Positions 8,748-63,456 of a stretch of DNA of 64,000 nucleotides are shown here, piece after piece. Source of the stretch: Curvularia clavata (lineage: Eukaryota); NCBI GenBank assembly GCA_023920165.1, contig CP089275.1:434001-498000 (forward strand). The letters are read 5' to 3'. Every line of letters begins with the position of its first letter. The stretch's first letter is position 1. The translations under genes and the position numbers were made by a program. The notes under the pieces are model-generated. The model saw only the letters and a list, made by a program, of their open reading frames with translations. It was not told the origin of the DNA and searched no databases.

Positions 8748-8935
8748 CTCTCCAGCGGGGAATTGAACCCCGGTCTCCCGCGAGCTGCCAATCGCTTGAC
8801 AAGCGGAAATACTGACCACTATGTAACTGTGCTGTCTGCCATCAAATCGGTCAAATTTTCTGTTTTGGGTTACGAAAACCTGCTAAATTTCCTACTCTGG
8901 GTCGCAGTAACGTGAGGTCGGGTTTCTGTGCTTAG
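8748..8935 (-). repeat. R1: conserved arm fused to a 5'-truncated tRNA-Asp(GTC) copy (attR-like)
   Basis: 8748-8822 matches the tRNA at 23545-23619 except for 3 intron changes. The tRNA 5' end TCTTCAGTAGT is replaced by ...ATGGCAGACAGCACAGTTAC. A T-rich terminator follows. Confidence 0.9.
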
Positions 8936-19937: not shown

Positions 19938-19989
19938 CTGCCTCCTTAGTCGTTTTGGTATCTCATATTCAATTGCCTGGATGATGCAA

Positions 19990-23544: not shown

Positions 23545-23630
23545 CTCTCCAGCGGGGAATTGAACCCCGGTCTCCCGCGATCTGTCAATTGCTTGACAAG
23601 CGGAAATACTGACCACTATACTACTGAAGA
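23545..23630 (-). tRNA. tRNA-Asp(GTC) with a 14-nt intron (T1, intact)
   Basis: TCTTCAG/CTGGAGA acceptor stem, AGTGGTC D-loop, TCCGC-TT-GTC-A[intron 23593-23580]C-GCGGG anticodon arm, CGGGG-TTCAATT-CCCCG T-arm and an oligo-T terminator. Confidence 0.95.
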
Positions 23631-26057: not shown

Positions 26058-27841
26058 TAACCAAAAACCGAAAATTTAATTGCCACAATGGCAGACAGCA
26101 CAGTTACAAAGTGGTTAGTATTTTTACTTCTTAAGTAATTGACAAATCGCGGGAAACTGGGATTCAATTCCCCGCTGGAGAGCTGATTCTTTTGATACTT
26201 TTGTGCTTTTTCTATCAGTGGTGAAGTGAAGAGTAGTCGCTCACCTAGCTGATCTGAGTCTCTTAGATCATTGGTATATAGCTAACCGTCACTAAAATAC
26301 CTCTATACTAACCTATAGGGAGACATTAGTAGATATTATCAAGATAGGATTTTGTAGCTTCTGTGACGGCGTTTGGCTACAATCACCACCCATTACTTAG
26401 AGGTACAGTACATCTCAGTGAGCAAGACCCGAGCTGGACCCAATTTGGGCCCGAAATGAATCTAGGCTTGTTACCGGGTCTTTGGATACAAATTCTATCC
26501 AAGTGTGATGGAGCGCATGGTGTAATAGTACACGTTTTTATCCAAACTCTGAGACTGTTCACGGTGCGCTTCTGTGTAGATTGCCACAATACGCATATAT
26601 TCTACAGCTAATATCTCCAAAACACTCTTGATCATAGAGACTACCGTGGCATGGACTATAACCTCCGCCCATCAAATTCGCCAGATATGAGCATTATGGA
26701 GACTTTGGCATTGTTAATCCGCCGCAATTTAACTATATACATTGCACAACTTAGCGTCAAGGTGTTCGGCGCTTCTATGAAGTTTGGGAGAACCTAAATC
26801 GCAAGAAGATCAACGAGATAGTCAACAACTACCCAACACGACTCCATAAAATTGTAAGTAGTTATCCAGTAAGAGTTTCAAAATATTGATCCAGAATTTA
26901 AGACTGCTAGCTACGCACAAAGGCGAGGTTTTCGCTGTCGATTAGGGTTGTTTTGCATCGGCGGTGGTGGGGCCACACTATTTCCGTTTTAAGCGCATGT
27001 CCGAGAGCAGCTGTCGCACTAGCCAATCGTTGACAAGTAGGTAGAGGTTTTGTCCTTATGCCATCTAAAACGCTACAAAGTCCAGATAGTGCTTCCGCTT
27101 CACCAGGAGATAATATCAACAGAATCCCCTTAGTTATAATCATATTCAACTCCCAGCGTTGCGGCCGAGGGTATTCAGCCTTACCAACAAGTCAGATTGT
27201 CCAATCGGCTTGCAACGCATCTATCCCCCGGACTTGTCGGGCCTTTAGCTTCAGCTTACGGCTCACAAATACCATGGTCGGCAAGAGATACGGCAAGTTG
27301 TGAACCCCAAGAATCAGCCCCAGATGTCCCACAAAGCATAGCCTACTTACTCTTTGGCAAAAGTATTCAAAGTGGGGCGGTGACAAGGGGGGAGCTAAGT
27401 TGGATAAGGAAGCCAGTTTTGATTTATTACTATGAGCAGTAGCTCTCAGAGCGAATTATAGCTTTTGATTTCCGTGTACAGCGATTCTGTTCGACTCAAA
27501 GTCCGACCGAGCAGAAGCTGGATAGCGCCCCACTTTGAATACTCTTGCTAAAGAGCAAGTAGACCTCCACTTGCCCAGAGTGTGGAGAGGTGGGAATTTA
27601 AGTTTGGCGACCCCGCGATTCGTTCGGCGACTTGGCCCTGGTTTGATATGCCGGCGGAGACAATGCACTCTGCAACTGCCGGGAGCATATTGAACAACGC
27701 CCGTTAAAATTGCGTCCGTGCCAAGCGGGGGAATGTCAATAAGTACGCCGTGTTTCTGGCTAGGTTTGGGTGATGAAGACGCAATCGCTGATCCGAGAGT
27801 ATTAATAGTAGGGAATTTCATACATCAAAATTAATATCGCC

Positions 27842-33776: not shown

Positions 33777-33888
33777 GGCTTTCAAATTTTGAAACGGGAA
33801 CGTGCTAATTCATGAGGATTTAGAAGAGATCTGTGACTGCTATAAACTTGGAAGATGCCCCTTTTCATCAACCGATTGCGCTCGGACC

Positions 33889-39819: not shown

Positions 39820-40005
39820 CTCCCTAGCGGTAGAATGAGCGCCAGGCTCCCGGACCCATTAATCACTTGATAGGTACAAACAATAATACGATTTCATTGT
39901 GCTCTCTGCTACCATATCTATTGATGCTTATATTCAAGATTACGAATACCTATTTGTTTTCCTACTTTCTAGATAGTAATCTAAGGGGGGTTTTCAGTTC
40001 TCAAG
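39820..40005 (-). repeat. R3: decayed arm + 5'-truncated tRNA-Asp copy
   Basis: Collinear with R1 on the + strand: tgtgctctctgc, ttacgaatacct, tttcctact and agtaa match, with the same 25-nt spacer. Degenerate tRNA body plus terminator. Confidence 0.75.
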
Positions 40006-40706: not shown

Positions 40707-42500
40707 CTACTCAAACTTCAAAGCTTCCAAATCAATCTCTGCTTCTCTTTTCCTGTACCTCAAAGTACTCTTAGGGTTTAACATGTAGTTGATTCCAAAC
40801 TTAGTTGGCTCAAGAGTTGTTCCAGGAGCCAATTCCCAATCATATTTGAGAAGAAGAAAACAGAGCGCAATCTTGGTCTCATTAGCAGCAAAGAAACGAC
40901 CGGGGCAGGAATGCATTCCGTGGCCAAAATCTAAGTGCTCCGGACTCGTGCTAACAAAGTGTGCTTTGTTAGCAAACTCGGGCGTTTCTCGCAAGCGCAC
41001 CCAACGGTATATGTCGAACTTCTCTGGGTTCTCAAATAGGTTTGGTTGCGACTCTCGGGCGCCATCTACCATGACATACTGTCCTTTGCGGATGGTTATG
41101 TTCTCTTCAGGTAGGTGTACATCTTTCGTTGCGATCCGACGCATGGCCACTTAAAACACGTCGTTAATGGAATGGGCCTATACAATAACATACGCAAGGA
41201 CTTACATCTTTCGTTAGGCAAAAATCTCTGTGCTTCCTTCATTGTGCTGTCTAACAGCTTCATGTTGTATAATGAGGATTTGCTCCATCCATCCTTTTTC
41301 AGGACACGAACAATTTCTTCCCGGAGGGGGTCCATTAGCTGAGGTTCTCTAGCCAAGAGCAACATGATCTTTGTCAAAAGGTCCGATGTGGTGTGTATAG
41401 CAGCAAACGATAGAAGAAGTTGCAGTGAGGCAGGATCATAGCTGATGCCTTTGCATTCCGCTTCGCCCCATTCAATGGCATCATTGAACTTTGGAACCGG
41501 TTTCCCTGCCTTGCGTGCTTGTTCCTTCAGTAAACGACGCTCCTCGATTACGGGCTTGACCAGCTCCTGAGAGCGCTGCAGTTGCTCACGAACAGTTCTG
41601 CATTCTTTAGAGAAGATGGGAACGAGGAACCGAAGGTAAGGGGGCACGAGCGTCAATCTGAATGCCGCTTGGAACATGTTCACAGTATATTCCTTCGTGG
41701 CCTTAAGCCAATCGTCGTTGCGACAAAGTCTGTCGCCCAGGAAGACGCGTGACGAAAGACGTGCGATGATGCTCAGCATAGAGTCCAAAATGAAGGTTTC
41801 TTGCCAATCTACTTTAGATTAGACAATTTTGATCACTAAATGACTACTTGAATCTAAACTCTTACCAGTGGGGTTACCCAAGACGAGCTCAGTTGCGAAG
41901 ATAGCTTCGGAAGCCAGGGGCTCAGTAACAGTATCTAGACAGACGGATTGTAAGCCACATAATGCAATGAATATTTCCTTGATATCAAACTTACTGAGTA
42001 GTTTTGTGAGTGGTTTCCTAACAAGATTTTGTATTACCTGTCCCTGATGCCCCATAACTCCCATAGGTGTAAATCCTGAAACGTGGGAGTGGAAGTCCTG
42101 GACAATTAACATTTTCTGCCTCATGAAGAGACTTGACAGAGCCTACCTGCTCGACAGCTTCCGCAAAGCTTAGACCTGCTTCGTTCCGGATAGCATTCAC
42201 ACAGCGTGATGGGAGGACAATCATTTCTCCATTATTGTTGATTATTCGGAACGCTCTGTCGGGAAACCTCTTCCGGGCATCATCTAAGATATCCATGCCG
42301 TGTTGTACAGCGTCTGATTGCCTTGCAGTCGTCGGAGAAAACCATGACGGAGGGTTCGCATGAGGGAGCTTGCTGTTTCTTTGACGTAGAATAAGTATCG
42401 CAATCACAGCCGCAAGCAATATCGGAGTGGTAACAGGATTAAGGATAAGTGGAGGCAGGCTGGTAGGAAATAGGCCAGTTGAAGATTCCAAGGTCTCCAT
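40707..42500 (-). CDS. Cytochrome P450 (CYP68/ent-kaurene oxidase-like clan)
   Basis: I-helix FAAIHTT, EAQR (ExxR), PEKFD, heme motif FGHGMHSCPG and an N-terminal TM; multi-exon. Confidence 0.9.
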
Positions 42501-45261: not shown

Positions 45262-46684
45262 CTACATGCTCTCAACATTCTTCAATCCCGCTTCTGTAAT
45301 TCCCATCATAACTTCAGACTCGAACAAGAAAGCTAGGAATGGTTCCGTTGCAATCTTCTTTGGCTTGAACTCTTTCGTTCTCTCTTCCTCATGCTCCTTT
45401 TTAGTAGACCCGTGTGGCGTCATTGGTCGAGTCATCATTGCGCCAAATGGCTTGAATACAAGGTCTCCACTTGGATCTGCCTCTTTCATAATCATGCCAA
45501 TAAATTCGCTCATGGTGTTCATATGGAATGGTGGCAGCCAGTATGTGTCTTCCATAACCTGCCAGCGTGGAGGAAAGACTGCAAAGTCGACCAAGGCAGT
45601 CCCTGGCTCTCGATATGAGGGTGCGGTAAGAACCGTAAAGATGGATGGATCAGGGTGGTCGTAAAGGAGGCTCCCAATAACATTGAAGCGTCCCAAATCG
45701 TACTTGTACGGATAATATGTACCATGCCACGCTGCAACATCAAATGGCGTTTGGCCCTGGGTACAGGAGAATAGCTTGCCGTTGAACTTCCTAATTACGG
45801 TCCAGTCGACAGCCTCACAGGTTGCCACACCGTCGCTGACGGTGCCGTCGAAAATAGCCTTCGGAACCTGAAAATCGCGTGGATTCGCAAGTCCGGATGA
45901 ACCCAGTGTACCAAGTTCAGGCAGCTGGTAGTGGCCATGGAACAGTTCGCAAATATAACCACGGGCAGGTCCGCCTACCAGATTGACTTGGTACTTGACC
46001 CCTCGAGGGATTACCGCAATTTCACATGGTCTATGCAAGGTGAGCATTATGAGTCGTGGCAAGAATGAGATTCCGAGAAGCAGTCATGCGTACCTTAGCA
46101 GAATGTTGCCAAACTCAGTATGAATATCCAACGCTCCTGATTGTGGCACGATAAGATAGTCTCCGTCAGATGAGAGGAAGGCGGAATTCGGAGGCATGTG
46201 TTTTGTAGCAGCATACACAGAGTACGCTAAACCAGTTTTGATAGCGATATCTCCTGACTGACAAATAACCTTCTGAGAAGTAACCCAGTCATAGCCAGGC
46301 TCCATCCCGAAATCTTTCCATGTGAGATAATTTGGGTCATAGATCAGAGGCCCCTCCTTTTCACCTGCGGAGGTGAGTTCACTCGAATACGGAACATACT
46401 TTCCACGGTTGAGTGAGGCCGACACGCGGTATAACCAAGTCTGGCTGCTAGCTGCCCGGGGACTTGCGAAAGCGCTGCCTGACAGAGACTCGGTGACCAA
46501 CTTATATGGGCCGACCTGGGGGTTGTTCTGCGCAATCGGATTGGCGCCAGGAAGAGCTTCAGATCTGTTTTCCAGCCATTTAATTTCGACTAGTAGAACA
46601 TTGGTAATATACTTACTGATGGTAGTCCCGCAATCCATCCAAGTACGTATACTTCTCTTCTATGGTGAAAGTTGTGGTGGGCAT
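45262..46684 (-). CDS. hmgA: Homogentisate 1,2-dioxygenase-family protein (divergent)
   Basis: MPTTTF..YTYLDG..YH-SEALPGA, DGDYLIVPQ, VIPRG, FDVAAWHG and DHPDPSIFTVLT; Fe-ligand motifs FHMNTMSE and MTPHG; two introns. Confidence 0.85.
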
Positions 46685-47099
46685 GATGGTGATATTTCCT
46701 TACTGTGAGGAAATCAGTATGCACCCTGGCACCCTATCCTTGAGGACTGATGTATAGACTCACTCTTAGAAAAAACTTGGTGAATGATGAATGAATTGTG
46801 AGGTCTCCAACACGAGGAACATGCAATTTTTATACATGGCCGGTATTCTCTCTAGATCTAATGCTTATGCAAGAGTAGATGTGTAATCTGGTTCGGCTGT
46901 GGAAGCTGTCGTTGCTGACTCTACGGAGGTGCCTTCGAAAAGTCCTTGCCTAACTTGACGAGCAGGGGGATTGCGAGCTATTCCTAATTCGGAACCAACC
47001 TCCGGCAGCTCCAGCTCTAGTCTCCTAAGCCGCCTACCCTCCTTCGATCCGTTGCCACCTTTAAGTTTAATAATTTGTTTAACATGAACTGGAGTTCTC

Positions 47100-48450
47100 T
47101 CAATCTAGACCTAAATCTCCTCTGAAGATAGGTCTCTCCAGCACTACTCTCAAGTTCGAATTCCCCCTACTATACTCTTTGGTGCCATCTTCTGCGTTGT
47201 AGCTATTTCCATCATCGGCCAGCGAGGCTCAACAGGATTAAGGTTAGGAGAGTTGCTACACCGGAATAGCCTTTCAAGACTAGAGAGGCTATATATATAC
47301 AGTATTGAGCGTAGTAGTCTTAAACAGGCAGCCTGTATTCTTATATGACTATCTTAGAACATTTAGCTGTACATTTCTTCATAGAAGAGGATAGGCTTAG
47401 AAGCAAAATATTGGTCTAATACCTATACTAGTTGATGCTAAAGCCCCTGCTTCTACTGAGCTTTCCAATCTTCTTATTCTATTGAGGTTGTCAGCCAGAC
47501 TTATTGCGAAGGTCAAGACATCGCATACTACTCTTGAGCTCTGAGTTAGGCAACTTGATTCGTTTAGCAGCAGCCTCTTTCTCTTACTTCATTCCAGGTA
47601 GCTAGTAGTGACAAGGCACCTTCTTGTCATACAAGAAGCACCCCTAGAACATGACTCAAAATAGCTCTTTTATTGCTTACGAATCCAGGTTCATACAAAG
47701 GCCTCATCTGCTTTTTTCCAAACTTGATATCCATCAGGGCCATGGTCAAGAATAATAGATGATTCATCTAACTAGACTACATTTTCCCAGTCCTCTAGTA
47801 TCCAGTGCTCATGATTGCGGCACAACTTATAGCGGCCATTCTCCGTCTTCTTCGTCAGTTCAGGTTTCCTCCTTGGTTGGTCTTCTTGGAATCTGCTTTC
47901 TCAAGAACCCGCCATACTATTGATACTGAGATATGGAACTTTTCTAGGCTAAGAGCGCCAGCAATGTCAGCACATGAATTCCCTTGCCCATATCTAGCAG
48001 TTCATACGGTATCAGCTACCTTTTCTAGGACTCTGGCGTGCTTAGGTGGCCGACCGGATCGAAGGGCATCCTCAAGATGTATATCTAGAAGCTTCATTGG
48101 CCGCTCGAATGGTTCAAAACCTCGTTCAATTGCCCGAGCGTAGATGGAGTTCACCGTCCGCGTTGGCATCCCAGAGATAGCAGAAACCTCTTTACTCGAT
48201 TTTCCAGTAGCTTTGAGACAAACGACTAGAGCACGCATAGAGTTCTCTTAGGGGGCCATAGTATCAAGGCTTTTATAATATATTGCACAGAGATACAGTG
48301 CTATGGCCGCAGTGGCCCAAGGAAAGTAACCGAAGTGAGGGCAACACAGTAGTGTACATGATGATTGCTATCAGGACTATGGAGCAAGTAAGTATCGTAG
48401 ATCTGAGATATGGCGCTAGTCCCAAAGGGGAAAATAGCCTGGCTGTGCTA
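47100..48450 (-). mobile_element. Degenerate Tc1/mariner transposon
   Basis: HTH segment ending RSGRPPK (48002-48238); NSPNLNPVEPRW (SPDLNPIE-like) near 47220-47255; many stops; ends approximate. Confidence 0.7.
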
Positions 48451-49977
48451 TAACATACAGCACGAAGTTAGAAACAAGAACCGCGTTAGTTCGGGGATGC
48501 TTCCCAATCTGGTTGACGCTGCGAACCCCTGCTCGCTGATTTTGGCAAAAACTTTTGAAAAGCACCTCCGTAGTTCAGTTCCGACTTCGCTCTTCAGCTA
48601 TGTCCGGCGGACCGAGCGCGAAGAACCAAGTAAAATATATTATGGCCGCTCGAGGTGGCTCCCACTTTCAATTAGCGTCTTGGCCGACGATCGCTTGGCG
48701 ACACTCAGCCAGTTGGCATTGTGCACATGGTTCATCTAAAACATAATCTTACCCTACCTGACGTTCTTGCATGAACATCAAGCACATGGCAGATTTCGGT
48801 ATCGAAATGCTCTAATGTATTGTTGCAATGCGTGGAGTAGGTTACGGGAGCACCCCTACGACAAAAATGACCGGTCACGAGTACAGGCCCCCAACCACCA
48901 TAATACTATCCTCAACTTTACACCACGTCTTTTTTTAAAAGCAAAAAAGAATAATAATTAACTAAATAGCTCTCAAGGCTTATAGCTGCTATCTCAGAAA
49001 GGTGCAATTAAGAATACTAAAGCGTTCGTGGTGTTTTAAGCCAAAATAGCAGATTTTCAACGTTTTTAGAGCGGACATTTTTGATGTCATAGGGGTGGCA
49101 GAGGGAGGCGATGGACAAGTAACAGCCAGTGCCTGCAGACCGGTATTGGTTGTGAGATTATCTCAGATCGCCGTACAGTTTGCCACTGAGGTGGGCATGC
49201 ACAAGGAAAGCTATCGAAACCTTCCTCGGCTGGTATAAGGTACTACTGCTGCTGTGCTTTCTGCACTCTAGTCTTTCTCCCATTTTCACGGTGATATTCG
49301 GTGGATGCAGGAACTTCGTCTCGTGTCCAGATCAGATGGCGCACATCAAAATCCCATGCGCTGTACCAGTTCCGTCAGTGCGTTTTTGACCAAGTCTCTG
49401 CCCTCTCTGCTCTGCATCATCGTTGGACAGTTGCTGTGTTCGCTGAAAGTACACTCGCGCTGAATCGTGTACAGCCTTCCGAGAGTGCCGATGCGGCCAT
49501 GTCAGCTACTGTGCTCTAGCTCTTGCTGCCTGACGCCACGTACCGCGAAACTGTCAAGCTAATGGGGCAGATCTACAAACTTTGTTAATGTGACCTCTTG
49601 CATGGCTCTTTGCAACTTCGGCGAGCACGACTAGGGTAGACAGGAAACGGCTGCTTACACAACTAGGATAAGAGCTATCTGAGGCCAGGTTAACGGAGGC
49701 CCTAGTTCTCAGCTACAGCATGCGCTACCCTTCGCAAACATCTCAGCATGCTACTAGCGCTTTTATGTCGCTTAAGACGCATAGATAATTGGATAGTTAA
49801 TTTAATAATAATATGTCCGTGTTAAAGCGCATTGAACATAATCTGAGCTTCTGGAACAAAAGTGTCCAGCTACACCGGCTACTCCGGCTGGCTAGGATTG
49901 GCGTTATATATTGTAGACAAGCACCAGGTGTCATCGCTCAGCAACAACCGCCTGTCTCAATCAATGCCAGGTAGCCA

Positions 49978-50063
49978 TCTGTAGTAGTATAGTGATCAGT
50001 GTTTCTACTTGTCAAGCAATCGACACATGGCGGGAGACCGGGGTCTAATTCCCCGCTGGGGAG
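49978..50063 (+). pseudogene. T2: full-length tRNA-Asp(GTC) pseudogene
   Basis: 86 nt collinear with T1, including the intron and native 5' end (TCTGTAGTAGTATAG). The D-loop GG>GA, broken anticodon stem and T-loop TTC>TCT suggest it is non-functional. Confidence 0.85.
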
Positions 50064-50443
50064 CTCAAATTGATTTTTTATTCGGTGACTTGATGTTCGC
50101 ATCATCTCAGGACTCACCCAAGCGGCGTCTTTTTTTTTCTGCCTCAGCTGAAAAGCGATGACAGCCGGTCCGAACCCAGCCCCATGCTGTCTGATCGATA
50201 CCAGTTGGTTTCGTGGCTGCACGAAAGGGTGGAGGCGCAGCCACAGCTACTAGTGTAGCTGCTGCGCCGCCCCCCACCTCCCAGGCTTCTACTAAGCATA
50301 ATACCTCGCTCTTCGGTACCGTTTCTGAAAAGAAAAAAGAACGAAACTCCTGCTCGAAAATTGTAGATATACTGGCTTACTCAATCGATACGCGTTTCTT
50401 ACATTGCGCTGGTGATACTCTAGACCCAGGCCTCCAAGCTGCC

Positions 50444-52497
50444 ATGCCAGTGGGGTCAAAGTCTAGCGTAGGTTTCCGGTCAAAGAATGAATCCTCCAAC
50501 AGCTTACTCTCTTTCAGAGCGGTCTAGCCAACACAACAATCGGCGAATCTGCTATTGAATTGAACTATCCAAAGCTGGAGAATGCCGATTTTCAGTTTCG
50601 TATGCTGGCTCTGGAACCCTCTGAGGACTTCAGTGACGACATTAAATGTCATGTCCATAATCGATCGCGAAGTCGCAACCCAGAGTACGAAGCTTTATCT
50701 TACAGATGGGGAGATCCAAAGGATACTACTACAATTTATGTCCGCCTGACTGAATATCAAGGCGAACAAGAATCTGATGAGACTCCATATACACCATGGC
50801 CAGTTACGCGCGACCTGGAACAGGCACTGCGATCCTTGCGACTACCCGATAAAATGCGTCTTCTCTGGGTAGATGCACTTTGTATAAATCAAAATGACGA
50901 CCTTGAGAAGGGTCAGCAGGTTCGAATAATGGGCAAGATTTATCAAAACTGCGTCCGAGATCTTTTATGGCTCGGACCAGAGAATGCTCAGATCGGGCGA
51001 GCCATGAGACTGATCCTGAAACTCCAAGGCCATGGTGAAAGCGGTCATGATAGAACTTGTAGGTCGATGATTGAAACCGAAAGCACAACCTTCTCGGCCT
51101 TCTCAGACCAAGCCTGGGATGACCTGAAGAGTCTTATCCTACATCCTGTCGTATGGGACAGAGTCTGGATTATCCAAGAGCTGATATTATCGCCCGAATT
51201 CACGCTCGTGTGTGGGAAAGATACACTGGACTGGAGTTGTATTGACAGCGTACTCGATGACAACCGCGATATCTTGAGAATATTCGACCTGCGAGGCACT
51301 GAGCTCAGAATGCTTCCAGAAGTTATCCACAAAGTGTCCATCATTCGGATGTATCGGATGCCACCAGAAGTGACCACCCGTTTGTTTTCCAAGTCCTTGC
51401 TCACCACTTTCTTCACTTTTCTGGAATGGGAAGCGACTGATAGACGAGACAAAGTCCATGCAGTGTTGAGTCTTACGACAGACGGGAAGGGATTGGATGT
51501 GGACTACCGAAAGACGATGGATCAGTTGTCAATTGATTTCGCTACAACATGCCTTGCGCAGGGCAACGTGAGACTGTTGTCTCACAACACAAACTATTGC
51601 GTCGATAAAACTCAGTATCTCAAACATCATCCAAGCAGCCGTGGGGATGCCATCAACGAGACGGAGCTTTTGGTTCCTCGCAGAAAAGACTGGCCAACAT
51701 GGATTCCTGATTTGTCCGACGATATCATCAGGAATGCTAAAAGCCCTGGTCTTTCTACTGCAGGAATCGCGAATTATAAAGCATGTGGTTCCATGGAATG
51801 TATGGAGGCCATGCAAGTCAGCCGTTGTCAGATTACTCCTTCACTTGAACTACTGATGGCTGGAGTCTTTGTTGATTCAGTTGCACTCGTCAACCCAATA
51901 ACCCTCGTGTCAGAGAACGAGACTGCAAGAGATCGATGGACTCGTGATGTTCTCGCCTGGGCACCGCCTGAAACGAAACAGCCAAATGCAATCTTGCAAC
52001 CATATCCATGGTCTGACGCAGAACATGAAAGCGTTGTCTCAGCATACTGGCATACCATCGTGACAGATCGTCGTACGGATAAACGACTCAACGCAGAAGA
52101 CCTAAGACAACCCCAATGGTATATGGAGATCTCAGAGGGCTCTGATGTACCCGAGGAAAACATGTTGCTGGCCGGCTGGCGCTTCGGCAAGACTGCGGCT
52201 GGTATGTACTGTATGCTTCCACCTCAATCGAAGGTAGGGGATACCCTTTGCGTGCCGAGCGGAGGACAAGTGCCACTACTACTTCGGCGGCGAAGCGGAG
52301 ATCGTGAGGTGTATGAGCTGATTGGGGAGGCATACGTGCATGGTATCATGGATGGAATGGGGATGCTTCGAGCGCTCGCAAACATGAGTAAGATGATGCA
52401 AGCTGATCCGAATCATGATTTCGAACACATGACTAGAAGGCTACAAGACGAGACGAGGGGCACGCAGTTCTATATGAAGACTTTGACCATCGCATGA
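50444..52497 (+). CDS. HET-domain protein (het-6-like)
   Basis: Motifs YEALSYRWG, LWVDALCINQ, VWIIQE, DRRDKVHA and YELIGEAYVHGIMDG; short exon 1 followed by an in-phase intron at 50468-50517. Confidence 0.88.
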
Positions 52498-53161
52498 AAA
52501 TACGATACATGGTATTCACGGTCACTGCCGTTCGTGGTTTCGCCATACTCTGCTGATGATCTTGTTTAGCATACTCAACAAAGACCGGGTGTGAGAGAGG
52601 AGGAGCCAAAGGGAACTGCGGATAGGGGAGATTGTAGTTGTCTTTGGTGTCTAGTAGTGCGCACGTGCGCGTTCGCTGTACCTAGTACCAATTCTGTAAC
52701 TGACTGGTGTTACTGAAGCTGGACGCTACATGAGAGCTGTTTAGCATGCTTCGACGCCTCTAATTTTTTAGGATTTGGCATCGCTAAGCAGCGCGCGCTG
52801 CCGGGGTGTTTTCCAATGCCTCATCCAATCAAGGTAGGTCACAGCCTTGTGTCCAATGTTCTGGTGCATGCCTTCAGCCGTGCTTGCCCCACCCGAGGCG
52901 TGATACGAAACACCCTCACCACACTTGATTGTGCCAGCGAGCGCCCGCTTTGGCTCAGAACACGATCGCACTTTGCAATATCATACTGCAAGTCAATAAT
53001 GCGGTGAAATCCTCTCTTCTCTTTTCTTGTAGGTAACGCGTAGGGTGCGAAGGTCACGACACGCAGCCTCGCCCGCGCACGCTGGGTCTGCCAGGCTGCC
53101 GTAATAAGCCTCTTGTGTTTTGTACCTGCTACCTGCGCCGACTCTCCACCCATACAACGCA

Positions 53162-56100
53162 ATGCGTCTTCTCAAGTACGGAGATAACGACGAATTCTCT
53201 ATCGCCGAATTCGGTGAGGACACAAAGCCACCATATGCGATACTCTCCCACAGGTGGGGACCAGAAGCAGACGAGGTAACCTTCGAAGATGTAGTAGGAA
53301 ATAAGGGCAAGGATAAGCCTGGCTATGCGAAAATTCGCTTCTGCGGGGAACAAGCACAGCGAGATGGCCTGCAGTACTTCTGGATTGACACTTGTTGCAT
53401 TAACAAGGCAAACAAGGCAGAGTTGTCGTTAGCTATCCAGTTGATGTTCCGTTGGTACCGCAACTCAGTGCGATGCTACGCCTACCTATCAGACGTGTCT
53501 GTATCGCATTCTGGAGAGGACGGGGGGTCAAATGTGCCCGCGTGGGAACCAGACTTCCGCAAAAGTGAGTGGTTCGTTCGCGGATGGACGCTCCAAGAGC
53601 TTCTCGCACCTAGCTCAGTCGAGTTCTTCTCACAGCAATGGGAGAAGCTCGGCGACAAGAAATCATTACTACACCAAATTCACGAGATCACTGGCATCCC
53701 ACATTCAGCACTACAAGGAGCTCGGTTGTCTCAATTCAGCATCAACGAGCGGCTACGGTGGACCGAATACCGGTATACTACATATCCAGAAGACAAGGTG
53801 TACTCATTGTTAGGTATTGTTGATGTTGACTTGGCCCCATGCTACGGCGAAGGCCTAGCTGGAGCGTTCAGACGACTTCACGACGAGATCGATAAGACGA
53901 AACGATGCATCCAGGACTTACGCGACACAGATCCGCGCGACGATAAGAAGCGCATTGAGGATACAAAGGGTGGCTTGCTAAAAGATTCGTACCGCTGGGT
54001 CCTTCACAACGATAGTTTCCGACAGTGGCGCGAAGACCAGCAGAGACTGCTATGGATAAAGAGTGACCCTGGCAAGGGCAAGACGATGCTACTCTGTGGT
54101 ATCATCGATGAACTTCAAGATTCAATGCCCCAAGGTGCTGTGCTATCGTACTTTTTCTGTCAAGCGACGGACGCGCGCATTAATAGCGCAACAGCTGTAC
54201 TAAGAGGGTTGCTTTACATGGTCGTAAGCCAGCAACCCTCACTTGCATTGAATGTCCGCAAAAGATACGATCAAGCAGGCAAGAAAATGTTCGAGGATGC
54301 GAATGCATGGGTTGTTCTAGCGAAGATGTTCACGGACGTGCTGCGAGACCCGAGCTTGACTACTCATACTACGTATCTAATCATCGACGCGCTAGACGAG
54401 TGCATTACCAACTTGCCAGAGCTACTTGACTTTGTCGCAAAGCAGTCGTCTGCCCTCTCCCACGTGAAGTGGATAGTTTCTAGCCGCAACTGGCCAGAAA
54501 TAGAGGGACGCTTAGAGCAGATAGTAGGCCACAAGGTCAGACTAAGTCTCGAGCTAAATGCAGCGTCTGTGTCGACGGCAGTCCAAATCTTTATCGATCA
54601 AAGAGTCTCTGAGCTCGCGCACCAGAACAAGTACGACGACACGACCAAGCGCGCTGTGCTCGAACATCTAGCATCCAATGCAAACGACACCTTCCTATGG
54701 GTAGCGCTAGTGTGTCAGCACCTTCGAGCGACAGCAAGGCGAAACGTTCTGAGGAAGCTAGAGCTGTTTCCGCTTGGACTGAACGCCCTATACGAGCGGA
54801 TGATGCAGCAAATCAACAAAACGGACGATGCTGAGCTCTGCAAGCAGGTGCTAGCTACGGTTGCACTTGTATATCGGCCGATCACGCTCGAGGAGCTGGT
54901 AGCTCTTGTCGAACCGCTTGAAGATATAACCGACGACTCAGAACTACAAGAGATTATCGGTTATTGCGGCTCTTTCCTTACCCTACGAGGACGGACTATA
55001 TACTTTGTACATCAGTCAGCTAAGGACTTTCTCCTTACCAAAGCGGCTCAAGAAGTTTTCCCAGCCGGACAGGAGGCCTTCCACTACTCTATCTTTGCAA
55101 GATCGCTTCAGGTTATGTCCACAACCTTGCAACGGGATATTTATGGTCTTAAAGTGCTAGGCATATCGATCGATGATGTCAAGATACCTGAGCCAGACCC
55201 GCTAGTAGCAGTGCGTTACTCTTGTGTTCATTGGGTCGACCATCTGCGCGACTCAAACCCTACAGCTTCCGCAACCTACGCAGGATGTTTGCAAGATGGA
55301 GGCCTTGTTGAAAGATTCTTGAAAGAAAAGTTTCTGTATTGGCTAGAGTCTCTCAGTCTTTGCGAAAGCATGCCGAAAGGTGTAGTCTCGATGAATGAGG
55401 TACAGATGTTAGTGCAGGTGTGTATGCAACAAACTACCTGCGAGATAACCTTCTTACTGACAGTAGCTAGGCACAAGGCAAGTCAACTTCATCTACTGAG
55501 CTTGTGTACGATGCATATCGATTTGTCATGTACCATAAGCAAGTAATCGAGATTCAACCTCTTCAGGTTTATGGATCTGGGCTATTGTTTAGTCCAACGC
55601 AGAGTCTAGTGAGAAAGCTATTCCGGCAAGAAAAGCCAGAAGGTATCACTATCAAACCAGGCATCAGGGACGGATGGAGTGCATGCCTGCAGACGCTTGA
55701 GGGCCATATGGGTATTGTTTGTTCAGTAGCCTTCTCGCACGACTCGACGCTGCTGGCTTCAGGATCTAGAGACGACACTGTCAAGATATGGGATGTAAGA
55801 AGTGGCACGTGTCTGCAGACCCTTGAGTACGGTAATATGGTTGATTTATTGGCATTCTCGCACGATTCACGGCGGCTGGCATCATCTGACAGGCGGGATG
55901 TCAAGATATGGGATGTAAGCAATGGCATGTGTCTGCAGACGCTAGAGCTAAACGACGGTTATCTCGCATCGGCGGCATTCTCGCACGACGCAACGCGACT
56001 GGCATCGTTTCACAAGGGGACTGTCAAAGTATTAGACACGAGCAACGGAGCGTGTCTACAGACCTTTGAGAACAATTATGGTGATGCTGGATTGGTGGCC

Positions 56101-57534
56101 TTCTCGCACGATTCGGCGTGGTTGGCGTTGGCGTCAGCGACCAACCACGGAGCTATTCATATATGGGATATAAGGAATGCTGTATGCCTACAGAAACTCA
56201 GAGTGCCTACCGACAGTGTCACTTCTATAGTCTTCTCACGCGACTCAGCGCGACTAGCGTCGGTATCGAGGGAAAGAACTATTAGAATCTGGGATACAGG
56301 TAGTGGTGTATGTCTGCAGACGTTCGAGGGCTATACCAACGGTATTGCCTCTATAGTCTTCTCAAACGACTCAGGGCGACTATTTTCAGGGTATTGGGAC
56401 GGAACTATCAAGATTTGGGATGTGCGTAATGGCGATTGTCTACAGGCGCTCGAGAGCCATAGCACTTGGATCACCTCCGTGGTCTTGTCGCCTGACTCGA
56501 CACAGCTCGTGTCAGGATCTGGGGATAAGACTATCAAAATATGGGACACCAACAGCAGCACGTGTCTACAGACATCTCAGGACCATAGCTATTCAGTCAT
56601 ATTAGTGGTCCTCTCGCATGTCTCTACGCGACTAGCGTCAGCGTCTTACGATGAAACTATCAAGATATGGGATACGAGGAGCGGCGAATGTCTGCAGACG
56701 CTTAAGGGCCATAGCGATACAGTCTCCTCAGTTGACTTCTCACACGACTATACTTGGCTAGCGTCAGCGTCTAACGATAAAACTATCAAGATATGGGATA
56801 CAAGGAGCGGCGAATGTCTGCAGACGCTCAAGGGCCACCAAAATGGTGTTGAGTCAGTAGCCTTTTTGCATGACTCAAAGCGGCTAGCGTCAGCGTCTAA
56901 CGATAAAACTATCAAGATATGGGATACAAGGAGCGGCGAATGTCTGCAGACGCTCGAGGGTCATAGCGATACAGTCTCCTCAGTTGACTTCTCACATGAC
57001 TCAACGTGGCTAGTATCGACATCTAAAGATCGTACCATCAAGATATGGGATATGGATGATGGTGCATGTTTGCAAACGCTTCAGGGTCATAGATATTCTG
57101 TTGTCTCCGCGGCCTTCTCGCACGACTCAACACGACTGGCGTCGTCGTCATGGGATGGCACTGTGAAGATATGGAATGCAAGCAGCGGCGCATGCCTGCT
57201 AACGCTCGACGTTGGAAGACGTCTGTATTGTTTGTCATTTGATGCTACTGGCGAATACTTGATTACAGATATTGGATCTATTGATGTAAGTACATCCATG
57301 GGATCTGCCACAGTGAATGCCACAGAGCTTCAACATCCCCGTTATGTTGGCGTGGGCATAAGCATTGATGGCACATGGATTACTTATGACGGCAAGGAAC
57401 TGATCTGGATACCACCTGAGTATCGACCCACATGCTCGTTTGTGCACGGAGACACAATTGGCATAGGTACTACATTAGGAAGAACATGGGTTTGTAGTAT
57501 TGACGTTCAAACGGTTTCCCAGCTATATGTATGA
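53162..57534 (+). CDS. HET-NACHT-WD40 NLR (HNWD, het-e/het-d-like)
   Basis: HET motifs YAILSHRW, WIDTCCI and RGWTLQE; NACHT SDPGKGKT and IIDALDE; about 12 WD40 repeats; intron near 55418-55470. Confidence 0.92.
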
Positions 57535-57755
57535 GCAAATACAAATACAGAGCTTCTTTCTCTATCTCATGCTCCATTTTCTTGACCCCTATCTCATAGA
57601 AATGAATGTGGATGCCTGAGTACATACATACGTGGTTTTGCCGCATCGAAGTGTCACAAAAGTTCAAGAAGCCAGACGATCGCGATTCTATTACACCATC
57701 ATTGTAGTCACTCATCAGCTGCCAATAGCATTGATAGCGTCTTTTTCATAATCTG

Positions 57756-57904
57756 GACCCGAAAAATTAACGCATTTTTGTAACCTAGAGTGGAAGCCTT
57801 AACAGTTGTTATGGCAGATGGCGCGGTGACATACTAGTCAACATCTCGGATTGTAAAGCAATTGTTAGCTCGGGGGAGACAGGAGTTCAACCTTGACTGT
57901 AGAG
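57756..57904 (+). repeat. R4: decayed arm + 5'-truncated tRNA-Asp copy
   Basis: GTAACC-N25-ATGGCAGATGGCGCGGTGACAT is followed by TAGTCAACAT..TTGTAAAGCAATTGTTAGCTCGGGGGAGACAGGAGTTCAA..AGAG and a T-tract. Confidence 0.75.
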
Positions 57905-58988
57905 TCATCTTTTTTCTTGATTTTTTCCACTTTAGTGGGTGGGTAAGTGCAGCTGAAGGGCTGGTCTAATTATAATGTACACTACTGGTTTACGGCTACT
58001 TGTCTGGTTCCCGGTCCTAGCATCAAGCCATTACATGGTCTCTACATCAGCACTCAGAGAAAAGAGATGGTAATCTCACTCGTGAGAGAGCTCAAGGTAC
58101 CTATCTTCCTCAGTGGAATACTAGGTGCATGCCAGCATCATACACTGAGTGACATTTTCGCTTTTAAGCCTTGGCTAGCGCGTCTACGCTACGCATCTCG
58201 CTTGCCGTTCTATATGCATTCCTCGTGTGGTCTCCTAAGATCTTTGGCCGTGCGATTAGAAATATGTAAATAGTGACACCCGACTGAAGTCTGACTGGCA
58301 TTTTGATGTTTCGCGTGACTCAAGTCATATGGTCCACATCAAGCGATTATCAACTTCGCAGTGGCGAAGCACTGTCAGATTGACGTCAGGGTACTTTGCC
58401 TTTTTAGGAGCAGTTAAACAATACTAGTATAGATACATAGCTTTTTAAAATATTTGATAGTGGTTGTTGCCTCATATACCTAAATTTGGGCTTCTTGGCC
58501 AAGATCCTTGTTCCCTTAGTATACACAGGTGAGGCAGGACTCGACAATCCTGGCATATCTAGTACCCTTATCCTTGGAAATTCCGGTAATTGCTACAGAA
58601 AAAGGCGCAATTCTACCAGTTTCAGATCGTTCAACACTCTGAAAGCTAAAGTCTCTTCGCACAGACGGTAGGTGTGCGACCCGACAAGGCGCTGATCCTG
58701 GTTGTACTCCACAAGCGAGCTTCAAAGCCCGATCTCAAGCAGAAAACTCCGAGGCTATGATTGTCATCCTGAGCGATGTAACGATCTTCACAGCCTGCTT
58801 CTTGGCTTTGAAAATGCTGATTTGTATTCTCTGCCCAGTCGTTATCCCCAGACAATCGGGTGCCTTCATCACCACAATAATACTGACTGCATTCTTCAGA
58901 GCTGTCTCGTACCTTGATACACTAGCACCAGGAAATTCAGTATTGGGAAAGAAAAGGCCAGCCAGAGTCATTTCGATATTCTCATCGT

Positions 58989-61946
58989 TTAGGACGCCTT
59001 TTCCAATGCTTCGTTATAATCATCGGTGCGTATCGTGGGCTTCTCCCCACGAATATGTTGAACCATGTTTCTAGCCCAGGCTCTAAAATAGGCACTCCAG
59101 GCGACTTGGCGCAACAGGGCCTTCTCAGTGGCTCGAAAGAGGCACGGAAGAGAATCCAGCCCACGCAAGATACCCACGTTCGTTAAATGAATATCAGCAT
59201 CTCCGCCACTCCTGACCCAATTTTGAACATCCTCTCGGCTTGAGAGTTGATCGAGCCGCACGAGACGCCGCGGCGCTGTGCCTAGCCGCCCAAAGTTGGT
59301 ATCTGCTGATGCCTGCGACGGCTGGGGCTCCACTTGCCGTAGTTCCATGTAAAGCGCAATGTAGCAAATGGCAACCCCAACACTGAACATGTCGTAGCAC
59401 GCAAGACGCTGCATGGTCTGAAGAGACTTGGAAATGCGCGCGGCGTGCCACAAACACTTTCTCGACCGCTCTCCGTCGCGCTCTAAGAACTCTCTGAACT
59501 TTGTCTTCGACCTCGTCATCTGGGTAGTGTTGGCTTGCCAACCGGTACCCGTAAACAGGATCTGCAGGGAGACGCAGCGGAGGATAGCTAGGATATGGGG
59601 AAGAGATTCATGGCAGCTGGCTGATTCCCGCGTCGAAAACACGATGTGATCGATGGACTCATCTAGCAACGGGTTATCGATTCTCGCATCCTCATTGTCG
59701 ATAAAAGCTTGCCCGATGGGCGCCTTGGGGATTCTGGGGCTCACGGCTCTGAGATGGGAGCCGAACAAGTTCACTGCGAGTCTTGATGCGCGGCGCTGCC
59801 TTTGGATGTTCTTTTCGTTAATGTACAATGATAGTAGGCTCATCTTGGTTAAGAAGGGGTTGTAATCGGTTCTTGGTGGTGGAGCTTCCTGGGACGCTCC
59901 TGGCTTCAACTGAACAGCTATACAAATCAGTCAAGGCGTGAGCACCTAGTATCCTGCGAGCTCTTACTAACCTTCAGATTTCTTCTGCTTCGACTTCCAG
60001 TCACTGAGATCTTTCGAATACCAAATACCACTGGGGCAGGGCATCTGCCGCGAGATATCAAACAGATCAAAATTTGTGGGGATATCAGTAAAGAGAAAAT
60101 GAATACATTCGAGCACTGTCACGAATTAATGTCGCCGATCCCATGCTAAGCGAAACACACAGACTTACTATATACGCAGCAAACAAGTCGTATTTCTTCT
60201 TCCGTTGTAAGCCACTGTGCCCACTCTTCACGAAGGGTGAAGGCACGTTGCCGGGCTGTTCTCTCGTCGTCCCTTCGCAACACCACGTCGTAGCACATGT
60301 CAACGAGCATGTGCCTCTGATATTGGCAGCGGATGATTTCTTTATACAAACCGCAAAACGAGAGGTGAATACGGCGCAAAAAGGTGCTCTGGATGAGGGG
60401 CTTGCTTGGTCGTTTGATCTGTAAATTGGCCTGTAGATGACAGTCAATAAAGGTCAGAAACAACTTAGGACTGGGTTGGCAAGGCACCTCACTGTCAACT
60501 GCTCGACCCAGCAAGTCGCACAATATCGAGGTATATTCTTGTATATTGTCAAGTTCAGAGTAATAGCTTCCGATGGCTGCCGTTGCTAAGAGCAAAATCC
60601 AAGGCAAATCTTCTGCCTCAAGATGTGAGATATGCAAGAAGGGGAAGTGGGGATCGAAGTACTCAAAGTAGAGATCTACAAAGGCTTGGATAAGGGGCAT
60701 AGGAACAAAAGATGATGTGTTGTCCTGGCATTGCGTTGCGTAGAAGTCTTGTAGGTCTCCGTATGCGCGAGCGGGGACGCTGTGGACGTGGCCAAATGTT
60801 TCTGCCTCGGCAGTCTGTATTTGACTGTCTTGCGTCTGTGGAAATCGCCGGTATAGAGGCTGGACGTGTGAATGAGAGCTCTGTACGACTGGATTGGTCG
60901 GATCCGAATTCGACGGACGGTCTGGCACATTCTGGTGTAAGCACTCGACTGAGGGGGCCGGCGCTTCTTGGCCCTGCATATGATAATTTGTGGAGTGACT
61001 GCGTGTCTCGATGCCGCACTGCTGCTTGTGGCTTGTCATGTCATTTGGAGCGCCAAGCGCATCCTCGAATTCTGCAGGTACCAGGCAGAACGGAAAGTAA
61101 GCTGTCATGTCATTCCACCCGGAGGCGAATTCGCTCACGACTGCGTCTCCATAGAGGGACAGAGAGGGGTCCCATTGATCAGACGTATAAAGATTAGAAT
61201 CGCTAGGTAGGGAAGAAGGGGTAAAGACAGTGGGCAGTGAAATTGGATGCCCGGCCGTTGTAGGAGAAAACGAATCGTTGCTTTGGTTGTTGCTGGTAGA
61301 GTCACTGGTGAAGTTGCTGTCATTGTAATGTAAAGCAGACTGCTCAGCGACCTCCGATAGTTGACTACTTGCCACATGAAGTCTAGTTGCTGGGCCGTTA
61401 GTGTCGCTAGGATGTAGATCGGACGAGATCGAGCTGGTCGTCGCAGCACTGGTGCGAGCAGTGGGTGTCTCGCTCGTTCGAGGAGAGATATCTGTGACAC
61501 TGATGGCCTTTCCCGGGCCGTACGTGCACTCGGTTCCAGTTTCCCGACAACGCGCACATGGCAGACCCCTCCCACAACGCTGCTTGAGCCGAGCACAGGA
61601 AAGACAAGCCTGTACACATCGACGTGGTGTACTGCGTGTCTGATCTTCAATACGATGAATTCTGTTGTGGCGCACGAGTGTGTCGCTGTGAAAGCCTTTA
61701 TGATCAACTGGATGCCGTGTGGAGATCAGGTTCTGCAATACTGCATGCGACGCACCTCCGCGCAAAGGACTTGGAGCAAACCTCGCACTGAAACGGCTTA
61801 ACGCCGGAATGCTTTCGCATATGCCGGTGCCGGTGCTCTCTCCGAAGGAACGTCTCCCCGCAGTGCTCACATGTGAGGGTCGCGGGATGAGACGCCATGT
61901 TCTTAACGATGGGCGTCGGGTGCATGGGAGAGGTGAAGGTCGACAT
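58989..61946 (-). CDS. Transcription factor with two C2H2 fingers, a Zn2Cys6 cluster and a fungal TF middle domain
   Basis: CEHC..HRHRHMRKH, KPFQCEVC, ACLSCARLKQRCGRGLPCARC..C and YFEYFDPHFPFLH; multi-exon. The start could be 61946, 61925 or 61898. Confidence 0.87.
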
Positions 61947-62244
61947 AGAGAGAGCAATGTGGGGCGTCTGGACCACCCGCCGACCCCATGTTTACCCCAC
62001 CCCCGTCGGCGCAGAGGTTCTCGGGCGTAGAGGTTCTCGGCCGAGAACGGTAATGAAGGTACCTACACACAGCATCTCCGAAGCACTTTGACAGCGGCCG
62101 CCATCATGGCCCCGTTGTATATGACCGCCCTGCATGGGCGCTTGCTCCTCGCGTCAGAGTGCCGATTTTTTATAAATCTTTATTTTTGGTTTGAAGTCAT
62201 ACACCTCGATTCTCGGACGAACGTCGTGCATTCTGACAACCACC

Positions 62245-63456
62245 ATGGATCACACGGCAGGTTCTACTGACCGCACAACCATTGAATGGTTTGGTGAGGT
62301 CACCCCCGGCAGTTGCATGCTTGTGCACACTGACGAGATCTAGGCGCCACAACGTTTCGGCTTCGTGTCAGAGGCATCACCATCTTCTTAGACAGCTGGC
62401 TTGACAGGCCCTCCGCCATGCCCAAGTACCTTGCCGCCGATGATGTGAAAGAGGCAGACTATATTTTCATCTCCCATGCTCACTTTGACCAGTAATTCAA
62501 TGACATCTTGATACACGTGACAAAGCAAGCTGACGAATTGGGAAGTCTGCCTGGAGCCGACCGCATCGCCATAAAAACCGGTGCCATTGTGATCGCCAAC
62601 GGTGAAGCCATTCAATGTCTCCGGAATGCGGGCGTCCCAGAGGAACAGCTGATTCCTGTGGCTGGTGGCGAGCGCATACCGCTTTTCACCCACGCAGTTC
62701 GCCAGCGAGCCCGACAGGATCCGTCTCTGCGGGCCAAAGGGTTGCCCGGCGCCCCCATCTTCCCAGTACATACACTGGCTAGCCTCTCGGTGCATGTTTG
62801 GCCGTCCCTGCACTGCATGATGCCCGAGGACCACCCACAGGTCATTGATACGGCAACAGTGTACACCGGCTCGGCAACGCCCTATACCTGTTCCTTAGAC
62901 ATCACGTTTGGGATGAAGCATGGCCTCTTAAATCTTGGCAAGCTCGTTCCGCCCGAGAAGCTCAACGACGGCCAGCGCTCCTTTATAGAGTACGTTGGTG
63001 ACCGGGAGCGTAATGTATTCTCCCACTATGACGGTGGACAATTGATGTTCAACTTCATCATTGGAGACAAGGCCTTGCTCTGGAGTGCCCATCTTGGCGC
63101 CTACGAGGGCGTCGTGAAAGATATGCAGCCCAAGCCAGATATTGCCATCTTGGCCATTGCTGGACGAGCCAACTTGAACGGGCGACCATTTGACGGCTCG
63201 TCGGCTGAATTCGCCGTGAAAAAGCTTGAGTGGCTTGAAAACCCATCTACAGTAATCTGGGCTCTTCATGATGAAAGGTAGGTATCCAGCCCTTAAACAT
63301 AGCACCATCATGAAAACAATGGACTGACTTGCTTTTCTCAGTTGTATCCCTCCTTACCGAATAGATACGGCAGCAGCCACAGCTGCAGTAGAGAAACTGA
63401 ATGGATCAAAGGTTTTAGATCTGAAGCATGCTGAGGTGGTTGAGCTGGACTTGTAG
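62245..63456 (+). CDS. Metallo-beta-lactamase-fold hydrolase
   Basis: TIEWFG-ATTFR, FLDSWL, ISHAHFDH (split by an intron) and WALHD; divergent from the TF gene. Confidence 0.82.

What the first reader, a model, noticed from the sequence alone, without database searches (positions are those of the whole stretch)
49978..57904. Cassette 2: HET + HET-NACHT-WD40 enclosed by older tRNA direct repeats
Seen: T2 lies ~380 bp before the HET gene and R4 ~220 bp after the HNWD stop, so the repeats bracket exactly two immunity genes with the same T-cargo-R polarity as cassette 1. Both repeats are more decayed. Inference: an independent, older integration of an allorecognition module.
Basis: partly seen in the sequence, partly recalled or inferred. 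Interest (0 to 1): 0.7.

Follow-up and report, generated by a model that had tools for sequence, protein, structure and literature searches.

The report
Fungal tRNA-targeting immunity gene islands
Two cell-death and immunity genes of a mould sit between a tRNA gene and a partial copy of it fused to a conserved 58-base end, a layout like that of bacterial genomic islands and also seen in a second mould genus, which suggests an undescribed route by which fungi insert and swap immune genes.

Summary
A decayed tRNA-Asp (T2, 49978-50063) and a partial copy (R4, 57831-57904) bracket a HET gene and a HET-NACHT-WD40 gene, with the polarity of cassette 1. R4 is more than a decayed tRNA. It lacks tRNA nt 1-11, and in their place carries a gapless 58-nt non-tRNA 'arm' shared by four R copies in the window and by no T copy. 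The arm-tRNA junction motif retrieved one independent case: in an Alternaria alternata-like contig an intact tRNA-Asp, a single HET gene and arm+R lie within 3.3 kb. That HET is 92% identical to a Bipolaris sorokiniana protein but 77% to this window's copy, which points to horizontal transfer. Best reading: attL/attR scars of cargo circles that integrate site-specifically into tRNA-Asp and restore it, as bacterial islands do. Cassette 2 is an old, probably immobile instance. Not shown: an empty site (2 of 4 laid metagenomes carry both junctions; no skip among 15 joints listed), a recombinase (none in 230 window ORFs scanned), the T2-R4 pairing itself, or that the two genes act as a module. It fails Starship membership. 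Ten literature searches found no description.

The parts
49978..50063 (+). T2: full-length but pseudogenised tRNA-Asp(GTC) with intron; inferred attL-like left junction. T-tract at 50074-50079
   Evidence: 87% to the intact copy; D-loop GG, anticodon stem and T-loop TTC are broken; upstream flank unrelated to the arm
50444..52497 (+). Cargo gene 1 ('HET-B'): HET-domain protein, 667 aa, intron 50468-50517
   Evidence: PF06985; 100% to NCBI USP74762.1 named Curvularia clavata, 79% Bipolaris sorokiniana, 77% B. oryzae, 70% Elasticomyces; intron read from the sequence against P0003
53162..57534 (+). Cargo gene 2: HET-NACHT-WD40 (HNWD) fungal NLR, about 1439 aa, intron 55418-55470, 12 spaced WD units; Walker A reads S-DPGKGKT
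   Evidence: Pfam HET, NACHT, NPHP3_N, WD40; intron at the same place and phase as in paralogue L006; G in place of S in L005 and L006; 9 full 42-aa repeats 45-79% identical
57773..57830 (+). Conserved 58-nt non-tRNA 'arm'; inferred element end or attP arm
   Evidence: gapless identity 37/58 to copy A, 38/58 to L001, 35/58 to D, 30/50 to C; above all of 2000 random segments for A, C and D; above all of 300 shuffles for A and L001, not for D (8/300)
57831..57904 (+). R4: tRNA-Asp nt 12-end with intron, decayed; inferred attR-like right junction. T-tracts at 57910-57926
   Evidence: 73% to the intact copy
8748..8880 (-). Copy A: arm plus tRNA nt 12-end, right junction of cassette 1; best-preserved R
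   Evidence: 96% to the intact tRNA, all 3 differences in the intron; arm likeness to D extends 215 nt
23545..23630 (-). Copy B: intact tRNA-Asp(GTC), left junction of cassette 1
26058..26182 (+). Copy C: arm (cut by a Pogo-like transposon at a TA) plus tRNA nt 12-end; no same-strand T upstream in the window
   Evidence: 10 of 12 changes are C>T or G>A
39820..39950 (-). Copy D: arm plus strongly decayed tRNA part; no same-strand T upstream in the window
   Evidence: tRNA score 45.5, near chance, but arm significant against A and L001
31402..33804 (-). 'HET-A': HET gene with no arm or tRNA beside it here; its homologue is the sole cargo of the Alternaria-like cassette L001
   Evidence: 84% nt identity over 2525 bp to L001 1883-4406; no arm hit beside it

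Best explanation
Cassette 2 is an old, probably immobile member of a family of small fungal integrative islands that target tRNA-Asp(GTC) genes. Inferred mechanism: an excised circle carries an attP-like site made of a conserved 58-nt arm fused to tRNA nt 12-end and the Pol III T-tract. One crossover with a chromosomal tRNA-Asp gives tRNA (restored)-cargo-arm-partial tRNA. Since T is again a valid target and R again a valid donor site, islands pile up, nest and can re-excise, which fits six copies within 50 kb. The recombinase acts in trans and is probably a tyrosine recombinase (inferred by analogy, not found). Cargo is biased to regulated-cell-death genes (HET, NLR, patatin-NLR, gasdermin-like gene with protease). 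Shown: the junction anatomy, its recurrence in a second genus, and a discordant cargo gene. Inferred: circle, enzyme, mobility of this copy, any joint function of the two genes.
For: All 4 window R copies lack tRNA nt 1-11 and share the arm; both T copies lack it. The arm is colinear without gaps across 5 copies from 2 genera. T-upstream, T-downstream and R-downstream flanks are unrelated: none of 31 pairs beat the best of 300 shuffles. 1 of 4 metagenome hits to the junction motif is fungal, and it shows intact tRNA-Asp 1298-1385, HET 1941-4352, arm 65 bp after the stop, then R, between a carboxypeptidase and FAD-monooxygenase, NIPA-like and COG4 genes (NIPA named by me from the translation). 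Its flank exons are identical to Alternaria alternata proteins. Its HET is 92% identical to B. sorokiniana but 77% to the window copy, while the two Bipolaris HET-B proteins are 86% alike; Curvularia and Bipolaris being closer to each other than to Alternaria is recalled. Among listed rows, the HET-A cluster stands on 26 contigs against 134 and 89 for two flank exons (15 rows each): a weak hint of presence/absence. A differs from B only in the intron (3 of 3), which fits recombination between two functional paralogues better than a decaying duplication (my arithmetic, p about 0.01-0.04). Starships move through circles and carry target-like sequence at their ends (passages), so the chemistry exists in these fungi.
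Against: No empty site seen: contigs of X3 and X5 bridge both T2 and R4; X7 and X9 show no listed bridging piece; none of the 15 joints shown (154 not shown) skips the cassette. No recombinase or integrase Pfam hit in 28+95+107 window ORFs. T2 and R4 share 0 derived changes while T2 and D share 5 (significance not tested). C and D have no same-strand T in the window, and the layout R(-)..T..R(+) occurs twice. HET-A sits in the window without arm or tRNA. HET-A and HET-B homologues are near neighbours in B. sorokiniana, so the zone may be inherited as a block. Two HNWD paralogues (59-63%) have no tRNA or arm in the DNA held. In L001, T and R share intron type and trailer, which a target duplication explains equally well. 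Only one independent cassette was found.
Confidence: 0.6

Rival explanations
1. The arm plus tRNA fragment is a short mobile unit of its own (SINE-like or MITE-like) that gathers in accessory regions and near tRNA-Asp; T-cargo-R brackets, T2-R4 included, are partly accidental or mispaired.
For: Orphan copies C and D; both orientations; 0 derived changes shared by T2 and R4; flanking genes are themselves patchy, so the whole zone is accessory.
Against: In L001 the only T and the only R in 14.5 kb bracket one gene tightly, on the same strand, the arm 65 bp after the stop; T and R there share intron and trailer. tRNA-derived SINEs begin with the tRNA part (recalled), whereas here the foreign sequence is 5' and replaces nt 1-11.
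Confidence: 0.17
2. These are derelict or non-autonomous Starships of an undescribed tRNA-targeting lineage: the captain was lost, the arm is the Starship 3' end, and a captain elsewhere moves them.
For: HET, NACHT and patatin genes are typical Starship cargo and captain-less derelicts exist (passages); some families target a Pol III gene, 5S rDNA; the arm ends in TTAC, the Hephaestus core.
Against: No DUF3435 at the T end or elsewhere in the ORFs scanned; repeat about 75-95 bp against 2-16 bp; target restored rather than disrupted; cassettes of 3-15 kb; 3 of 3 lack a captain; the base after TTAC(N7) is T, not A.
Confidence: 0.15
3. No mobility: local duplications and decay of tRNA-Asp in a vertically inherited accessory block that also collects HET and NLR genes.
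For: Cassette 2 is present at the same site in 2 unrelated metagenomes; HET-A and HET-B are neighbours in B. sorokiniana too.
Against: Does not explain a shared gapless non-tRNA arm with one fixed breakpoint in 5 copies at unrelated flanks, nor the 92% Alternaria-Bipolaris HET identity.
Confidence: 0.08

Closest known systems
Bacterial tRNA-targeting genomic islands, ICEs and integrative mobilizable elements (features recalled; tRNA targeting by ICEs also stated in PMC9156397)
   Same: Intact tRNA on one side, 3' part of the tRNA as a direct repeat on the other, conserved element end next to the repeat, tandem piling, defence cargo.
   Different: Eukaryotic nuclear locus, intron-bearing tRNA and intron-bearing cargo; repeat covers nt 12-end plus terminator; no integrase on board in 3 of 3 cassettes; no transfer genes.
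Starships (DUF3435 tyrosine-recombinase elements of Pezizomycotina; PMC11162782, PMC9156397, PMC10104507, bioRxiv 10.64898/2026.09.21.753150)
   Same: Fungal, cargo of HET, NLR and patatin genes, horizontal transfer, terminal target-like repeat, some families target a Pol III gene (5S rDNA), circular intermediate.
   Different: No captain, much smaller, repeat 75-95 bp against 2-16 bp, tRNA-Asp target that is restored; no tRNA target named in the passages read.
Podospora HNWD allorecognition NLRs het-d, het-e, het-r (PMC13449251, passages)
   Same: HET-NACHT-WD40 architecture of cargo gene 2.
   Different: WD repeats 45-79% identical, below the 80-100% high internal conservation of het-e-type genes; Walker A G replaced by S; no functional data.
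tRNA-targeting retrotransposons (Ty1, Ty3, Dictyostelium TRE; recalled)
   Same: Use tRNA genes as landing sites.
   Different: They insert beside the gene with short duplications and encode reverse transcriptase; here most of the tRNA is duplicated and the cargo keeps introns.

Membership tests
Starship | DUF3435 tyrosine recombinase (captain) as first gene at the 5' end | tested here: not met
   HET follows T2 by 380 bp; no PF11917 or integrase hit in 230 window ORFs or in the 4 L001 ORFs scanned. Heavily broken relics could be missed.
Starship | Short direct repeats (2-16 bp) matching the target core | tested here: not met
   Repeat spans tRNA nt 12-end (about 75 bp) plus trailer; range from PMC11162782 passages.
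Starship | Auxiliary cargo families (NLR, patatin, DUF3723, FRE) | tested here: met
   HET-NACHT-WD40 in cassette 2; NB-ARC-TPR and a patatin piece in cassette 1. Not diagnostic alone.
Starship | Clean empty site and circular intermediate | tested here: inconclusive
   No skip among 15 joints listed in 4 metagenome contig sets; contigs drop rare forms.
tRNA-targeting integrative island (bacterial type) | Full tRNA at one end and 3' tRNA fragment as direct repeat at the other | tested here: met
   Cassettes 1 and 2 and L001; T2 has since decayed.
tRNA-targeting integrative island (bacterial type) | Conserved element-side att arm beside the repeat | tested here: met
   58-nt arm in 5 of 5 R copies and 0 of 3 T copies; that a recombinase binds it is inferred.
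tRNA-targeting integrative island (bacterial type) | Cognate integrase, on board or in trans | tested here: inconclusive
   None in the window; the rest of the genome is not held.
tRNA-targeting integrative island (bacterial type) | Empty attB allele in relatives | tested here: inconclusive
   negative for cassette 2; contig counts hint at absence of HET-A in many Alternaria; accession adjacency could not be completed.
HNWD NLR family | HET + NACHT + WD40 architecture | tested here: met
HNWD het genes with high internal conservation | WD repeats 80-100% identical | tested here: not met
   45-79% among 9 full repeats; threshold from PMC13449251.
Allorecognition (het) locus | Allele-dependent cell death on hyphal fusion | not testable with these tools
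   needs genetics

The most novel reading that the evidence does not exclude
Pleosporales fungi have an undescribed class of mobile element, separate from Starships: small, non-autonomous, tRNA-Asp-restoring integrative islands whose only conserved part is a 58-nt att arm. They shuttle HET, NLR and gasdermin-protease genes between loci and genera and so build eukaryotic 'defence islands' at tRNA genes, driven in trans by a site-specific recombinase not yet identified.
Probability: 0.4. Interest if true: 0.88.

Novelty: new variant of a known kind. Interest (0 to 1): 0.7.

Why it matters
Fungal NLR and HET genes are patchy, turn over fast and cross species lines, and how they move is open. PMC13449251 links them to transposons in general terms (passages). 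A fixed junction motif makes the question testable: one profile search over fungal assemblies lists every island, its cargo, its empty alleles and any element that still carries the enzyme. If it holds, it is a eukaryotic parallel to bacterial tRNA-anchored defence islands, and a natural site-specific integration system at a multicopy neutral site.

Tried and rejected
Whole genome not held. Junction, tRNA and arm patterns gave 0 hits in viral contigs, and the tRNA pattern 0 in prokaryote genomes. HET-B and HNWD had no relatives in viral contigs. 3 of 4 metagenome hits (L002-L004) are unrelated tRNA-like sequences and were dropped: no BLAST hit to the window, tRNA score at most 39. L005 and L006 are distant HNWD paralogues, not orthologues, without tRNA or arm. 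Synteny by accession numbers failed for cassette 2, since no named genome held both flanks (HmgA paralogue: C. kusanoi 87%, A. terreus 72%; transcription factor: B. maydis 59%, Pyricularia 56%), and for L001, since the carboxypeptidase exon gave no Alternaria accession. The L001 record could not be searched further. The laid runs proved to be mixed metagenomes, so depth says nothing on presence or absence. One X5 contig holds an 84% HET-B relative and is listed on the window for only 1626 of 4148 bases: a weak hint that the gene pair is not kept. No fold signal in arm+R (z -0.6 to 0.4). No regional RIP or GC shift in the cargo. Whether C's arm continues left of the Pogo insertion was not supported. 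A six-frame read-through scan for a broken recombinase did not run; stop-free ORFs of 48-79 aa were scanned instead. 3 of the 110 ORFs listed (at 3269-3592, outside the islands) were never scanned. The gasdermin-like ORF has no PDB sequence hit. Five look-ups of earlier findings returned nothing.
Full report
Setting. The window is fungal. The cargo HET protein is 100% identical to an NCBI protein named Curvularia clavata; no whole genome is held. A local alignment scan with the one intact tRNA found six related copies: A 8748-8829(-), B 23545-23632(-), C 26101-26182(+), D 39820-39893(-), T2 49977-50063(+) and R4 57831-57904(+), with scores 143, 176, 111.5, 45.5, 132 and 75.5 against 34-40.5 for the best hits in 5 shuffles. 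B is tRNA-Asp(GTC) with an intron.

Observation. T2 ends 380 bp before the HET ATG at 50444. The HET-NACHT-WD40 gene runs 53162-57534 with one intron whose place and phase match a paralogue. The tRNA part of R4 starts 296 bp after the stop, and a conserved arm 228-238 bp after it. T2 is 87% and R4 73% identical to B, against 96% for A. T2 has lost the D-loop GG, anticodon-stem pairs and the T-loop TTC, so it is a pseudogene (read from the alignments).

What R really is. A, C, D and R4 lack tRNA nt 1-11 and share a non-tRNA sequence in their place; B and T2 have the full 5' stem and unrelated upstream DNA. For the 75 nt upstream, R4 scores 66, 54 and 33 against A, D and C, each reached by 0 of 2000 random window segments; against B and T2 it scores -6 and -8. 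The core is 58 nt and aligns without gaps; between A and D the likeness runs 215 nt. In one search, five of the six arm pairs among A, D, R4 and L001 beat all 300 shuffles; D-R4 did not (8 of 300). None of 31 pairs of T-upstream, T-downstream and R-downstream flanks beat the best shuffle. A profile of the arm finds no further copy in the window. So the layout is host-tRNA | cargo | arm-tRNA(12-end)-terminator, the anatomy of attL and attR in bacterial islands that carry the 3' part of their target tRNA (recalled).

Independent case. The arm-tRNA junction motif gave 4 hits in the metagenome collection. Three are unrelated and were dropped. L001 holds an intact tRNA-Asp (1298-1385), one HET gene, the arm 65 bp after its stop, and R, all on one strand, between a serine carboxypeptidase and FAD-monooxygenase, NIPA-like and COG4 genes. 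Its flank exons are identical to Alternaria alternata proteins. Its HET is 92.2% identical to B. sorokiniana GGP41_005997 but 77.1% to the homologue in this window (31402-33804), and the window copy is 81.3% identical to the Bipolaris one; HET-B of two Bipolaris species is 85.8% alike. As Curvularia and Bipolaris are closer to each other than to Alternaria (recalled), this points to transfer between the Bipolaris and Alternaria lineages of a gene that now sits inside T..arm-R; hidden paralogy is not excluded. Among the 15 rows listed per cluster, HET-A stands on 26 contigs and two flank exons on 134 and 89. That is only a hint of presence/absence, since the clusters differ in breadth and ORF length.

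Age and status of cassette 2. Of 19 runs holding 53000-62999 (2 flagged as possible source) I laid 4; all are mixed metagenome contig sets. X3 and X5 each have contigs that bridge T2 (about 96%) and R4 (about 98.6%); X7 and X9 list no bridging piece among 8 shown each. None of the 15 joints shown skips the cassette; 154 were not shown. So no empty site was seen. In B. sorokiniana the HET-B homologue (EMD58540.1, GGP41_006000) lies 3 locus numbers from the HET-A homologue (EMD58537.1, GGP41_005997), as the two genes are neighbours here, so the zone is old or moved as a block. The HNWD has S for G in Walker A and WD repeats only 45-79% alike, below the 80-100% of het-e-type genes (PMC13449251, passages). 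'Older' is supported; 'module' is not shown.

Results against the reading. T2 and R4 share 0 derived changes and T2 and D share 5, two of them also in C; I did not test this formally. C and D have no same-strand T in the window, and R(-)..T..R(+) occurs twice (8748-26182 and 39820-57904), which nesting or inversion could explain but I could not resolve. HET-A has no arm beside it in the window. Two HNWD paralogues at 59-63% have no tRNA or arm nearby. No recombinase was found in 28, 95 and 107 window ORFs. Both flanking genes of cassette 2 are patchy, so the zone is accessory as a whole. In L001, T and R share intron and trailer, which a target duplication would also give. Against simple duplication, A differs from B at 3 sites, all in the intron.

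Mechanism. Most likely (0.6): a cargo circle with arm plus tRNA fragment recombines with a tRNA-Asp gene, restoring it on the left and leaving arm-R on the right. Each product is again a substrate, so islands accumulate. The enzyme would act in trans; a tyrosine recombinase is the best guess by analogy. Starships use circles and carry target-like ends (bioRxiv 10.64898/2026.09.21.753150, part 1 of 4 read; PMC10104507, passages). Rivals: a free-standing short element (0.17), captain-less Starships of a new lineage (0.15), no mobility (0.08).

Comparison with what is known. It works like a bacterial tRNA island and shares cargo types with Starships (PMC9156397, passages). It fails two defining Starship tests, the captain and the 2-16 bp repeat, and Starship insertions in 5S rDNA are described as disrupting the target (PMC11162782, passages). 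Passages of PMC13373834, PMC13004909 and PMC12134995 name no tRNA target. Ten full-text searches (listings seen) showed no paper describing tRNA-restoring islands in fungi. The library lacks most subscription papers and I read no supplements, so novelty is probable, not proven.

Verdict. A real feature. Interest 0.7.

Noticed in passing
window 16627-20940: Cassette 1 carries a DUF7580/S8 protease gene convergent with a gasdermin-like ORF (19990-20940; ESM Atlas score 0.96 to clusters with PF26164 in 10 of 30 hits; recognition score below the tool's threshold). Resembles the Podospora het-Q pair (recalled).
   Followed up: partly
window 10337-16573 (-): NB-ARC, patatin and NB-ARC-TPR pieces that may form one large het-z-like NLR gene, or two genes, inside cassette 1.
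   Followed up: no
window 8748-26182 and 39820-57904: Twice the layout R(-)..T..R(+): two outward-pointing arm+R copies enclose one T in 17-18 kb; unexplained.
   Followed up: partly
window 31402-33804 (-) and L001 1941-4352: HET-A is 92% identical between an Alternaria-like contig and B. sorokiniana, 77-81% to the window copy: likely horizontal transfer. The window copy's first ATG is in another frame than the long ORF.
   Followed up: yes
window 21116-22976 and 24184-26059: Two Pogo-like DDE transposons in opposite orientation, 82% alike, flank the intact tRNA; the second cuts the arm of copy C at a TA.
   Followed up: partly
window 27343-27562 and 46921-48573: A MITE-like inverted repeat and a Tc1/mariner-like relic with terminal inverted repeats.
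   Followed up: no
window 34137-38732 (+): Large sacsin-domain gene head-to-head with HET-A (PF25794).
   Followed up: no
window 45262-46659 and 58989-62062: HmgA paralogue and Zn2Cys6 factor with patchy best hits (Aspergillus terreus 72%; Pyricularia 56%).
   Followed up: partly
L005 5470-7383 and L006 2564-4813: Fungal-type HNWD genes (one with a spliceosomal-type intron) in contigs filed under an archaeal and a bacterial MAG: probably binning contamination.
   Followed up: no
P0009: The Elasticomyces homologue of HET-B (70%) has an N-terminal HeLo domain (PF14479); high identity for so distant a fungus.
   Followed up: no
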